In this document: piece after piece, positions 4,754 through 6,240 of the stretch
Numbering within the stretch: the first letter of the stretch is position 1
Layout: each line of letters opens with the position of its first letter
Virus record (IMG/VR): IMGVR_UViG_2700989044_000001
Coordinates: 1 to 11,682 of that record
Length of the DNA: 11,682 bases
Direction: 5' to 3' (one strand)
Source of the DNA: a virus
Lineage: Duplodnaviria; Heunggongvirae; Uroviricota; Caudoviricetes
Notes under the pieces: model-generated
Databases searched by the model: none
The model's input: the letters and a program-made list of their open reading frames with translations, nothing else
Told to the model about the DNA's origin: nothing
Made by a program: the position numbers and the translations under genes

Positions 4754-5851
4754 TTGAGTAGAATTAAAAAAATTAATAATAATAAAAGTCAATCTCTAGA
4801 TTATACTTTAAATGTAGATAATAATGAAGAGTATGGTAATAATGTGGATCCTGAAATTGATTGGACAACTGATGTTGACCTTCAAATGGATCCATCGAAA
4901 AATGATTATAATAAGGGGTATACTATGGATCCATATCAAATGAGATATTATGCTAATAGAAATATATTGCATGAAGTTAAAGCCGGTGAAAACTACGCTA
5001 CAATAGCTGAAAAATACTTTGGACATAAAAATTATGCTAGTAAGTTAGTAGAAATGAATAATGAGTTATCTAATAAAATCTTGAAGCCTGGCATGATGCT
5101 AATTGTAGGCAAAAAACCAGCAAAGGTTGCAGCGAAAGAAGTTAGAGATATCACTTATACTTCTGATAATTTAGCAAAGGAAATTATCACAATTTGGAGT
5201 CAAGTAGATGGACCTCTTCAAGATTTCTTTAATGCATTTACAATGAATAAAATGACAAATGAAATGAAGCAGCAGATAGCAAGTACTCTGAATGAATGGG
5301 GTTACAATGTAATCCCGCATTTAGAAGATAGAACTCCAAGATATGCAGCTAAGAAAGAATTGTTTAATAAGATTGCTAAAATATCTAAAGAGAAAAACAT
5401 GAAAAGAGTTTTCTCTGAATTAAACAACATCTGTCCTGATTCAAAAGTTGTATCTTCAATTTTAAGAGATATTGAAGAATTAAGTCAAAATGGAGTTATT
5501 GTTAAGAAGGCAGAAGCTCAAGGTTTAGTTGATTATTTTAAACAAATTTTCCCTGATGATTACGCTGTATCGTTGGTTGATATAACTCTTAATAAACCTA
5601 ATACTAGTTTTGAAGAATTTGATGAAAACCAAGAAATTTCAGATGAAGCTTTAGATCAAATGGAAAAAATGGATAGTGGTAATCAAGACCCAATGAGTAA
5701 ATCACCAAATGACGGCGGTTTAAACGGTTATGATTTCACTACTCACATGAGATCTGATGGTCCGGGTGGAGTTGCACCTACATCATTTGAAACTGGGCCA
5801 TTTAATGTATATAGAGCGAGCGTTAAAAATACTCGCTTAAAAAAAAAGTAA
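4754..5851 (+). CDS. LysM-domain phage protein, 365 aa (possibly the N-terminal part of a frameshifted ~495-aa product)
   Basis: LysM consensus HEVKAGENYATIAEKYFG...KLVEMNNELSNKILKPGMMLIV (~4964-5109). Start moved to TTG 4754 because GGAGG (4740-4744) is 9 nt upstream, giving N-terminus MSRIKK. Confidence 0.85.
   Translation: MSRIKKINNNKSQSLDYTLNVDNNEEYGNNVDPEIDWTTDVDLQMDPSKNDYNKGYTMDPYQMRYYANRNILHEVKAGENYATIAEKYFGHKNYASKLVEMNNELSNKILKPGMMLIVGKKPAKVAAKEVRDITYTSDNLAKEIITIWSQVDGPLQDFFNAFTMNKMTNEMKQQIASTLNEWGYNVIPHLEDRTPRYAAKKELFNKIAKISKEKNMKRVFSELNNICPDSKVVSSILRDIEELSQNGVIVKKAEAQGLVDYFKQIFPDDYAVSLVDITLNKPNTSFEEFDENQEISDEALDQMEKMDSGNQDPMSKSPNDGGLNGYDFTTHMRSDGPGGVAPTSFETGPFNVYRASVKNTRLKKK
5839..5848 (+). 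other. A9 run / in-phase A_AAA_AAG slippery heptamer (candidate -1 frameshift or transcriptional-slippage site)
   Basis: CGC TTA AAA AAA AAG TAA. The -1 frame is open from 5827 to 6240 and continues GTA ACC GCT GAT... into the downstream ORF. Confidence 0.55.
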
Positions 5852-5889
5852 CCGCTGATTCTATAGAAGATATTCCAGTTTATTTAGTT

Positions 5890-6240
5890 TTGGATGCACT
5901 TTCTAAAGCGTCGCATAATGTTTCTGATTTATTGAATAGAAAACTAGATGTTCCTCCAGTACCAATTGAAACAATTAGAAAACAAGATAACAACAAGGCG
6001 AGTGAAAATGAAAAAATACCTAGTGGGTATAGAATGCCTGTAAATATTGTTGAAGTTTATAGTATTTGGAAAATATTTGTTGAATATGAAAATAATGAAG
6101 TTAACGAAGCTTATGTAGTTATAAGTGCTGATAATATAATTGATGGTTACAAAAAAGGTGAATGGCAACGAGTAGAGTATCGTGGTTTTTATCTCACTTT
6201 TGAAGAAGCAAAAAATGAAATCAATGGATATTTGGAGTAG
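5890..6240 (+). CDS. Hypothetical protein, 116 aa as called. The frame is open from 5827 and it is probably translated as a fusion with the LysM protein.
   Basis: Coding-like codon use, but no SD-like sequence before TTG 5890. The in-frame codons 5848-5889 (VTADSIEDIPVYLV) also look coding. Confidence 0.65.
   Translation: MDALSKASHNVSDLLNRKLDVPPVPIETIRKQDNNKASENEKIPSGYRMPVNIVEVYSIWKIFVEYENNEVNEAYVVISADNIIDGYKKGEWQRVEYRGFYLTFEEAKNEINGYLE

What the first reader, a model, noticed from the sequence alone, without database searches (positions are those of the whole stretch)
5827..6240. A9 / A_AAA_AAG slippery site fusing the LysM protein to an RBS-less downstream ORF
Seen: the LysM ORF ends CGC TTA AAA AAA AAG TAA (nine As, 5839-5847). 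The -1 frame has no stop from 5827 to 6240. A -1 shift (or +1 A) gives ...NTRLKKK-VTADSIEDIPVYLVLDALSK..., about 495 aa instead of 365 aa. The downstream ORF has no SD, unlike every other confidently called gene in the window whose upstream sequence is visible. The supposedly intergenic codons 5848-5889 look coding: 13 of 14 end in A/T and 7 of 14 start with G. The fused junction RLKKKVTA also resembles RLKKVS in the 72-aa protein. Established: A_AAA_AAG drives -1 frameshifting in dnaX and IS3-family elements, and A9 runs allow transcriptional slippage. Programmed shifts in phages are best known in tail assembly chaperones and capsid genes. Caveats: no strong stimulatory SD or hairpin is evident, LKK codons produce this heptamer by chance (also at 9535-9541), and a homopolymer sequencing error would look the same.
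Basis: partly seen in the sequence, partly recalled or inferred. Interest (0 to 1): 0.75.

Follow-up and report, generated by a model that had tools for sequence, protein, structure and literature searches.

The report
Conserved poly-A slip site, phage G
A head-region gene of the giant Bacillus/Lysinibacillus phage G ends in a run of nine A's that relatives down to 26% identity also keep. The run very probably lets the RNA polymerase (or the ribosome) slip one base, giving a 365-residue and a 495-residue protein from one gene, a known trick at a site I could not find reported in the papers I could read.

Summary
The LysM gene (4754-5851) ends TTA AAA AAA AAG TAA, with an A9 run at 5839-5847. 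The -1 frame is open from 5827 to 6240.

It is neither chance nor an error.
- In 18 distinct relatives, down to 26% identity, an A9 or A10 run sits 0-5 codons before the stop.
- In all 18 the roughly 130-codon downstream frame is -1.
- Protein similarity and codon periodicity start directly at the run, before any start codon. One relative has no start codon in the whole downstream frame.
- A9 runs are about tenfold depleted in the 497-kb genome.

More distant relatives encode the two parts in one frame yet still keep an A9/A10 run, with stops close by in both other frames. A GC-richer lineage is fused with no run.

The run therefore acts as a conserved two-isoform switch. The extension is a compact alpha/beta domain placed behind a disordered linker.

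Only the length of the run is conserved. No hairpin or SD-like stimulator is conserved, and the final G is present in only half of the loci. I therefore favour transcriptional slippage (+1 A) at about 0.6 over ribosomal -1 frameshifting at about 0.3.

It is a new member of a known kind. This scan has noted similar A9 sites in other phages. Phage G can be grown, so the site can be tested directly.

The parts
4740..4744 (+). Shine-Dalgarno GGAGG of the LysM gene, 9 nt before the TTG start
   Evidence: Read directly from the sequence. Relatives begin M[SN]RIKK at the same place.
4754..5851 (+). LysM-domain gene in the 0 frame, giving the 365-aa short isoform that ends ...NTRLKKK, followed by TAA
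   Evidence: Translation. Pfam LysM PF01476 at residues 73-118, E 1.5e-5, above the curated cut-off. 24 homologues all end [LIV]KKK.
5839..5847 (+). A9 run, the slip site. One extra A in the mRNA, or a -1 ribosomal shift, moves reading into the -1 frame.
   Evidence: A9 or A10 is present in all 18 distinct split loci. Read from the junction sequences printed, L018, L033-38 and L039 carry A10 and L043-48 carry A9, all in frame. A>=9 runs are about tenfold depleted genome-wide.
5842..5848 (+). A_AAA_AAG heptamer in the phase required for a tandem -1 ribosomal shift. It overlaps the run.
   Evidence: Phase read. The G is kept in only 9 of 18 distinct loci. The heptamer as such occurs at chance frequency in the window.
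5849..5851 (+). TAA stop of the 0 frame, one base after the run
   Evidence: In relatives the 0-frame stop lies 0-15 nt after the run.
5848..6240 (+). -1-frame extension of 130 codons plus TAG, with no start codon of its own. It encodes a compact alpha/beta C-terminal domain of the 495-aa long isoform.
   Evidence: Translation. tblastn similarity begins at residue 1 in relatives. Alignment A2 has an invariant Pro at residue 13 of its window row (window:5839-6237), which is residue 10 of the extension, five codons before the first possible start. Per-position divergence is 0.36/0.18/0.60 in the 14 codons after the run. AlphaFold models give pLDDT 85-93 in the fusion model and pTM 0.70 for the domain alone.

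Best explanation
The A9 run at 5839-5847 is a programmed recoding site. It makes two proteins from one gene of phage G.

Standard reading gives a 365-aa protein: a disordered N-terminus, a LysM domain, a helical domain and a disordered tail ending RLKKK. In a fraction of the products, reading continues in the -1 frame. This adds a 130-residue alpha/beta domain and gives a 495-aa protein.

The most likely mechanism is transcriptional slippage. The RNA-DNA hybrid of a bacterial-type RNA polymerase is about nine base pairs, so it can realign on the nine A:T pairs and add one A to the transcript. Normal translation of A10 transcripts then gives the long form. That the host polymerase does this, directed by phage sigma factors, is inferred. 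A -1 ribosomal shift on A_AAA_AAG may contribute.

Shown here: the anatomy of the site, its conservation, the lack of independent initiation signals, and purifying selection on the -1 frame from the run onward. Inferred, not shown: which machine slips, the ratio of the isoforms, and the role of either isoform. The position between terminase and portal and the LysM domain suggest a head-associated or injected wall-binding protein, but this is a guess.
For: (1) All 24 protein homologues (44-77% identity) end [LIV]KKK. Only one is fused.

(2) In 18 distinct loci, down to 26% identity of the upstream protein, an A9 (15 loci) or A10 (3 loci) run lies 0-5 codons before the stop. The downstream domain is always in the -1 frame.

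(3) The downstream frame has no conserved start. L026 has none in 135 codons, in L014 the first is at codon 79, and in L015 at codon 54. Gene callers choose inconsistent, truncated starts.

(4) Similarity starts at the run (KKK-V[TI]A[DE]xIxNIPL...). Per-position divergence in the 14 codons after the run is 0.36/0.18/0.60, matching the body of the ORF.

(5) The run is selected at DNA level. Given [LIV]KKK, the chance of at least nine A's is about 0.24 per lineage, or about 4e-8 for 12 lineages treated as independent. No other run longer than A8 occurs in those genes. The 46-49% GC relative L020 still has A10. A>=9 runs are depleted about tenfold in the genome.

(6) For polymerase rather than ribosome:
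- The run never drops below 9 in any locus that has one.
- It occurs in two codon phases.
- The terminal G is absent in half of the loci.
- No conserved hairpin or SD-like element flanks it.
- In-frame relatives (L033-39, L043-48) still keep A9/A10, with stops 0-2 codons after the run in the +1 frame and 5-8 codons after it in the -1 frame.
- The split and fused states changed at least 4 times on the tree while the run stayed.
- Slippage by bacterial RNA polymerase is efficient on runs of nine A or T, and Thermus dnaX uses it to make two isoforms (PMC5009743).

(7) A second A9 site with the same geometry exists at 16357. Two of its relatives encode one continuous ORF there.
Against: No transcript or protein data were available, so neither isoform nor an A10 mRNA has been seen.

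The site also contains a correctly phased A_AAA_AAG, the most shift-prone -1 heptamer in E. coli (PMC5009743). Every run of A>=9 contains a phased A_AAA_AAA, so ribosomal frameshifting fits every locus too and cannot be excluded by sequence.

Conservation of KKK could partly reflect a need for a basic linker. The lineages are related, so the 4e-8 figure overstates independence.

The GC-richer relatives P0058 and P0060 have a fused gene and no run. The short isoform is therefore not universally required.

The function of the extension is unknown. The best PDB match has Z 6.4, which is not significant.
Confidence: 0.6

Rival explanations
1. Programmed -1 ribosomal frameshifting of the dnaX type. 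Ribosomes with tRNA-Lys on AAA-AAG slip back one base on A_AAA_AAG (5842-5848) and continue with GTA at 5848. The protein made is the same 495-aa fusion. The mRNA is unaltered.
For: A correctly phased A_AAA_AAG is present and is kept in 9 of 18 loci. The other 9 have a phased A_AAA_AAA or A_AAA_AAC. A_AAA_AAG is the most shift-prone heptamer in E. coli (PMC5009743). The 0-frame stop directly after the site could pause ribosomes. According to an earlier scan note (e1-1829252, not checked here), phage G has another A_AAA_AAG site at its endolysin gene that is annotated as a frameshift. A lambda-type frameshift is reported for its tail chaperones gp181/182 (PMC8570332).
Against: No conserved downstream hairpin or pseudoknot and no upstream SD-like element was found. 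Folding z-scores of the flanks are mostly near zero in 18 loci. Seven bases would be enough for this mechanism, yet the run is never shorter than nine and the synonymous A of the preceding L/I/V codon is always kept. The G is lost in half of the loci. In-frame relatives keep the run although no frame change is needed to reach the C-domain.
Confidence: 0.3
2. Two independent genes. The downstream ORF is translated on its own from TTG 5890, or by termination-reinitiation after the TAA, and no fusion protein is made.
For: Gene callers annotate separate ORFs of 81-126 aa in relatives. In L020 an ATG overlaps the upstream stop (ATGA), as in translational coupling.
Against: TTG 5890 has no SD and lies inside the conserved IPLxLVLDALS motif. 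Conserved residues, including an invariant Pro, lie upstream of every candidate start. L026 has no ATG, GTG or TTG in the whole frame. The -1 frame shows coding periodicity from the run onward. Distant relatives encode one continuous protein.
Confidence: 0.04
3. An artefact or a decaying gene. Either a homopolymer sequencing error (true genome A10), a recent frameshift mutation, or DNA-level phase variation of the run in the phage population.
For: A homopolymer miscount is a possible error in any single sequence record. One relative, L018/P0014, has A10 and a fused 488-aa ORF where its nearest relatives have A9. It comes from a contig with about 1x k-mer coverage.
Against: The same split is seen in 18 distinct loci from many independent records and samples. 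A10 loci (L009, L017, L020) are still split by -1, so run length does not track the frame. Strong purifying selection acts on both halves. DNA slippage on nine A's is far too rare to supply a protein in each infection; this last point is general knowledge and was not tested here.
Confidence: 0.03

Closest known systems
Thermus thermophilus dnaX (tau/gamma), programmed transcriptional slippage on a run of nine A/T (PMC5009743)
   Same: A homopolymer of nine acts as the only obvious signal. Two isoforms share an N-terminal part and differ by a C-terminal domain. Stops lie close by in the alternative frames. Across relatives the long form is encoded either in frame or out of frame, and the dnaX family likewise shows both arrangements.
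   Different: Here, in phage G, the long form needs the slip, whereas in Thermus the short form does. The gene is a phage head-region LysM protein, not a replication factor. No RNA or protein evidence exists yet.
Shigella flexneri spa13 / mxiE and Citrobacter/Yersinia tssM: transcriptional slippage on A/T runs that fuses two frames (PMC5009743; PMC4256274, seen only as a title and abstract in search results, not read)
   Same: The downstream frame lacks its own start and is reached by adding a base to the transcript at a run of A or T. The result is a C-terminal extension made in a fraction of the products.
   Different: Those are chromosomal or plasmid secretion-system genes of Gram-negative bacteria. 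This is a phage gene in a Firmicute host, and it is conserved across a wide family of uncultured giant phages.
E. coli dnaX -1 programmed ribosomal frameshift at A_AAA_AAG
   Same: The identical heptamer is in the correct phase, and a stop follows closely.
   Different: dnaX has an SD-like stimulator upstream and a stem-loop downstream. Neither is present or conserved here. The G of the heptamer is dispensable in relatives. In E. coli dnaX the shift gives the short product.
Lambda G/GT-type tail assembly chaperone frameshift (phage G gp181/gp182, PMC8570332)
   Same: A phage structural-module gene yields a short and a C-terminally extended product through a -1 frame change near its 3' end.
   Different: The location differs: between terminase and portal, not upstream of the tape-measure gene. 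There is no sequence relation, and the slip signal is an A9 run. Phage G has its own separate chaperone pair.

Membership tests
Programmed transcriptional slippage site (Thermus dnaX / Shigella mxiE type) | Homopolymeric A or T run of about nine or more, matching the RNA-DNA hybrid length | tested here: met
   A9 at 5839-5847. A9 or A10 is present in all 18 split loci. The in-frame relatives L018, L033-39 and L043-48 also carry A9/A10, read from the sequences printed.
Programmed transcriptional slippage site (Thermus dnaX / Shigella mxiE type) | Run conserved at nucleotide level beyond what the protein sequence requires | tested here: met
   The synonymous A of the preceding L/I/V codon and the AAA Lys codons are always kept. 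The chance is 0.24 per lineage and about 4e-8 for 12 lineages. The run is kept in a 46-49% GC relative. Such runs are about tenfold depleted genome-wide.
Programmed transcriptional slippage site (Thermus dnaX / Shigella mxiE type) | The alternative frame encodes a conserved polypeptide without its own initiation signals | tested here: met
   There is no conserved start, L026 has none at all, and coding periodicity begins at the run.
Programmed transcriptional slippage site (Thermus dnaX / Shigella mxiE type) | Heterogeneous transcripts with added or lost A's, and two protein isoforms in vivo | not testable with these tools
   No transcriptome or raw proteome of phage G was available. The 2025 multi-omics paper (PMC12484599) does not mention RNA-seq or a transcriptome.
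-1 programmed ribosomal frameshift, dnaX type | X_XXY_YYZ heptamer in the 0-frame phase | tested here: met
   A_AAA_AAG at 5842-5848, with AAA and AAG as 0-frame codons. It is kept as such in 9 of 18 loci. The other loci have A_AAA_AAA or A_AAA_AAC.
-1 programmed ribosomal frameshift, dnaX type | Stimulatory downstream stem-loop or pseudoknot 5-9 nt after the heptamer | tested here: not met
   The 60 nt after the run were folded in 18 loci. The window gives -6.6 kcal/mol with z = +0.3. Most z-scores lie between -1 and +0.4, and no structure is shared.
-1 programmed ribosomal frameshift, dnaX type | SD-like stimulator about 10-14 nt upstream | tested here: not met
   No GGAGG-like element is visible by eye in the 45 nt upstream in the window or the relatives (sequences printed). 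This was an inspection by eye, not a scored scan.
LysM-domain proteins (Pfam PF01476) | Match to the LysM profile above Pfam's gathering score | tested here: met
   25.3 bits against a cut-off of 20.9, at residues 73-118. The AlphaFold model has a confident small domain at residues 70-120 of the homologue.
Lambda G/GT tail assembly chaperone pair | Position directly upstream of the tape-measure gene in the tail module | tested here: not met
   The gene lies between the terminase (1-1683) and a portal gene that starts about 650 nt past the window's end (L027 1337-3283; called portal only in an earlier scan note, not tested here), next to an M16 peptidase and a sigma-like gene. The chaperone pair of phage G is gp181/gp182 (PMC8570332).

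The most novel reading that the evidence does not exclude
The A9/A10 run may be an evolutionarily stable device that sets the ratio of isoforms and works in both directions. A whole family of giant phages has kept the run through at least four flips between 'long form needs the slip' and 'short form needs the slip'. Phage G uses the same A9-plus-TAA design at a second head-region gene (16357). Polymerase slippage would then be a general expression strategy for head or injected proteins of megaphages, with a fixed short-to-long stoichiometry built into the virion.
Probability: 0.35. Interest if true: 0.7.

Novelty: new member of a known kind. Interest (0 to 1): 0.58.

Why it matters
Phage G is the only cultivated megaphage. 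Its annotation and its virion proteomics depend on knowing the real gene products. As far as I could see, the 495-aa trans-frame protein is in no protein set: no 100%-identical long form turned up in the protein search. The two phage G papers I could read mention frameshifting only for the tail chaperone pair.

The site also gives a clean natural system, in a Firmicute host, for separating polymerase slippage from ribosomal slippage. The family offers natural 'split', 'in-frame with run' and 'in-frame without run' variants as controls.

For annotation of metagenomic giant phages, it shows that a start-less ORF behind an A9 run should be joined to the preceding gene, not called separately or dropped.

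Tried and rejected
- Cultured-phage database. megablast of 4700-6300 and tblastn of both proteins against 50,697 phage records found nothing. The window's own record is withheld. JN638751, an accession I recalled from memory, could not be fetched, so I could not see whether GenBank already joins the two ORFs.
- Word-index search for longer proteins carrying the C-domain. It found nothing, not even the known fused P0014. I discarded it as uninformative. The exhaustive profile search then found the fused forms.
- Conserved RNA structure. The window has a hairpin at 5814-5838 (GCGAGCG...CTCGCTT, -8.7 kcal/mol, z -1.4) that ends directly at the run. This recalls the nascent-RNA stem-loops that stimulate slippage, but it is absent in all 17 relatives, so I rejected it as part of the signal.
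- Function of the extension. Pfam and PHROGs gave no hit. Foldseek of the whole fusion model against the PDB gave nothing below E 0.09. The VIA-align wide search of the domain model gave a best Z of 6.4 (cystatin, WGR and NTF2-like alpha+beta folds), within the background range.
- Promoter and terminator scan of 3000-9500. Nothing beyond chance, and no terminator near the site.
- Papers. The 2020 phage G virion mass-spectrometry paper (PMC7316594) is not held. The 2025 multi-omics paper has no supplementary tables held as text, and its main text does not mention the ORF names I guessed for this region (ps585-ps590).
- A tail-chaperone reading was rejected on gene position.
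Full report
**What is there.** The window is the first 11.7 kb of a 497,513-bp virus record. 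Notes from earlier in this scan call the genome Bacillus/Lysinibacillus phage G. This fits the literature: the NCBI phage G genome is 497 kb and was rearranged so that the large terminase is gene 1 (PMC12484599), and the window begins with a terminase large subunit.

The gene order in the window is:
- terminase;
- M16 peptidase;
- a sigma-70 region-4 protein;
- a 274-aa protein;
- the LysM protein;
- the start-less ORF;
- a 930-aa protein.

A portal gene, so called only in an earlier scan note, starts about 650 nt past the window's end.

The LysM gene starts at TTG 4754, behind a GGAGG, and ends CGC TTA AAA AAA AAG TAA. The A9 run is at 5839-5847 and the stop at 5849-5851. The -1 frame is open from 5827 to 6240.

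**Is it more than chance?** The heptamer AAAAAAG is not special (11 seen, 14.5 expected). The nine-base run is. The genome is 30% GC, yet it holds only five A9 and one A10 on the + strand, against about 50 and 20 expected. Most of the 18 runs of A>=9, read on their A-rich strand, are intergenic, and several form the T-tail side of terminator-like hairpins. Only two sit at the end of a long ORF with the -1 frame open behind them: this one, and one at 16357 with the same design, TTA AAA AAA AAC TAA.

**Relatives.** A protein search found 24 full-length homologues of the LysM protein at 44-77% identity. They come from uncultured phage contigs of up to 558 kb. Every one ends [LIV]KKK, or KKN or KKKK, and only one (P0014, 488 aa) continues into the downstream domain.

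I fetched DNA for 18 distinct loci, the window included, reaching down to 26-31% identity of the upstream protein. In all of them:
- The downstream domain is in the -1 frame relative to the upstream gene.
- An A9 (15 loci) or A10 (3 loci) run lies 0-15 nt before the 0-frame stop.

The A10 loci are still split by -1, so run length does not simply compensate for the frame. The run occurs in two codon phases: NNA AAA AAA AAN in most loci, and AAA AAA AAA in L012, L014, L015 and L016. The base after the run is G in only about half of the loci.

**The downstream frame is translated from the run onward, and not from a start of its own.**
- tblastn similarity begins at the first codon after the run.
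- The alignment shows KKK-V[TI]A[DE]xIxNIPLxLVLDALS, with an invariant Pro upstream of the first possible start in the window.
- Candidate start codons are not conserved. L026 has no ATG, GTG or TTG in 135 codons. In L014 the first is at codon 79 and in L015 at codon 54. None has an SD.
- In the 14 codons between the run and the window's TTG, pairwise differences per codon position are 0.36/0.18/0.60. The rest of the ORF gives 0.42/0.23/0.60.

Independent initiation is therefore excluded as the general mode of expression. Only L020 has an overlapping ATGA that could add coupling.

**Selection on the DNA of the run.** In 12 LysM genes, 79% of Lys codons are AAA and 39% of Leu/Ile/Val codons end in A. 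Given [LIV]KKK, at least nine A's are expected in only about 24% of lineages, yet all have them. That is about 4e-8 if the lineages were independent, which overstates the case. None of these genes has another KKK or another run longer than A8. L020, at 46-49% GC, has no other run longer than A4 in the gene but keeps A10 at the junction.

**In-frame relatives.** An exhaustive profile search with the C-domain found 42 proteins. Several more distant ones carry the domain in frame at the C-terminus of a longer protein. Their DNA shows three further states.
- The P0031 clade, seen on at least 24 contigs, reads AGA TTG AAA AAA AAA ACA: A10, in frame. The +1 frame stops two codons after the run and the -1 frame stops after five.
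- L039 has A10 in frame, with TAA directly after the run in the +1 frame.
- L043-48 read AGT AAA AAA AAA CTA AAA: A9 in frame. The +1 frame reads AAC TAA, and the -1 frame stops after six codons.
- The GC-richer P0058 lineage (L040-42) is fused with no run at all (TCG TGT CGT CGG GTA GTT), and P0060 also lacks KKK.

On a tree of the C-domain, the split/fused state changes at least four times, and at least two changes are forced by well-supported branches.

Three conclusions follow. The long protein is a real functional product. The run is kept whether or not a frame change is needed to reach the C-domain. Wherever the run exists, stops in the other frames lie close by. This is the pattern of a two-isoform switch, as in the dnaX family.

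**Structure.** An AlphaFold model of the natural fusion P0014, built with 41 homologous rows, has these parts:
- a disordered N-terminus (1-67);
- a LysM domain (70-120);
- a helical domain (137-309);
- a disordered linker (310-361) that holds the KKK junction;
- a confident C-terminal domain (368-488).

Modelled alone, the window's extension is a helix, four antiparallel strands and a helix, with pTM 0.70. No significant structural or profile match was found, so its function is unknown. Placing the slip site in a disordered linker fits an add-on domain.

**Mechanism.** Both candidate mechanisms give the same protein, ...RLKKK-VTAD...

I favour RNA-polymerase slippage for four reasons.
- The only conserved nucleotide feature is a homopolymer that never drops below nine in any locus that has one. 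Nine is the length at which bacterial RNA polymerase slips efficiently, and it is the length used by Thermus dnaX (PMC5009743).
- Seven bases would be enough for the ribosome, yet the synonymous ninth A is always kept.
- The G that makes A_AAA_AAG especially shifty is dispensable.
- No hairpin or SD-like stimulator is conserved. The window's own hairpin at 5814-5838 is unique to it.

Phage G encodes sigma factors (PMC12484599). Use of the host's multisubunit polymerase is plausible but is inferred.

Ribosomal -1 frameshifting cannot be excluded, because every A>=9 run contains a phased A_AAA_AAA. It may contribute. I put slippage by the polymerase at about 0.6, the ribosome at about 0.3, and everything else below 0.1.

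**Errors and mutations.** A sequencing error in phage G is excluded by the many independent records and samples that show the same split. The one fused close relative (L018, A10) comes from a contig with about 1x k-mer coverage. It may be an error, a slipped template or a real flip. It carries no weight either way.

**Comparison and novelty.** This works like Thermus dnaX and like Shigella spa13/mxiE or tssM: an A/T run of nine, two isoforms, and a start-less second frame. It contains the E. coli dnaX heptamer but lacks that system's stimulators. It is not the lambda-type tail chaperone pair, which in phage G is gp181/182 (PMC8570332).

The two phage G papers I could read do not mention this site. 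I could not see the GenBank record. Earlier notes of this scan report similar conserved A9 sites in other phage genomes, and an A_AAA_AAG site at the phage G endolysin. I did not check those notes.

The finding is a new member of a known kind. It is well supported by comparative evidence and can be tested directly, because phage G can be grown.

Noticed in passing
outside the window: genome 16357-16365 (L027:5358-5366); ORF L027:5056-5370 plus the -1 frame to L027:5702: There is a second A9 site with the same design (GGT TTA AAA AAA AAC TAA). It joins a 104-aa ORF to 114 start-poor codons in the -1 frame, a few genes after the portal. The relative G001 is also split at an A9 run, whereas G002 and G004 encode one continuous 230-aa and 220-aa ORF without a run. 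The two halves are weakly similar repeats (28% identity).
   Followed up: partly
window 5814-5838: The hairpin GCGAGCG-N-CTCGCTT (-8.7 kcal/mol, z -1.4) ends directly at the A9 run. It recalls the nascent-RNA stem-loops that stimulate slippage, but it is not present in any of the 17 relatives examined.
   Followed up: yes
whole genome (G000): Runs of nine or more A are about tenfold rarer than a first-order model predicts (A9: 5 against 50; A10: 1 against 20). T runs are less depleted. Several T9/T10 runs follow GC-rich inverted repeats, that is, terminator tails.
   Followed up: partly
L019, L021-L024, L026, L033 and the window 1977-9079: A gene block is conserved across these giant phages: NT5C-like nucleotidase, M16 peptidase, sigma-70 region-4 protein, a protein of about 265 aa, the LysM protein with its extension, and a protein of about 920 aa (1111 aa in the P0031 clade). 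The P0031 clade lacks the LysM domain but keeps the slip site and the C-domain.
   Followed up: no
L018:1302-1311 (P0014): This is the only fused close relative. It has A10 where its nearest relatives have A9, on a 1757-bp contig with k-mer coverage of about 1. It could be a homopolymer error, a real flip of arrangement, or a read from a slipped template. The sample type is not known to me.
   Followed up: partly
L040-L042 (P0058) and P0060: GC-richer relatives have the two parts fused with no A run and no KKK (…TSCRRVVADV…). In those lineages only the long protein can be made by this route.
   Followed up: partly
window 4754-4771, and the N-termini in alignment A1: The N-terminus MSRIKK(I)NNNKS is strongly conserved among the closer relatives although the model predicts it to be disordered.
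   Followed up: no
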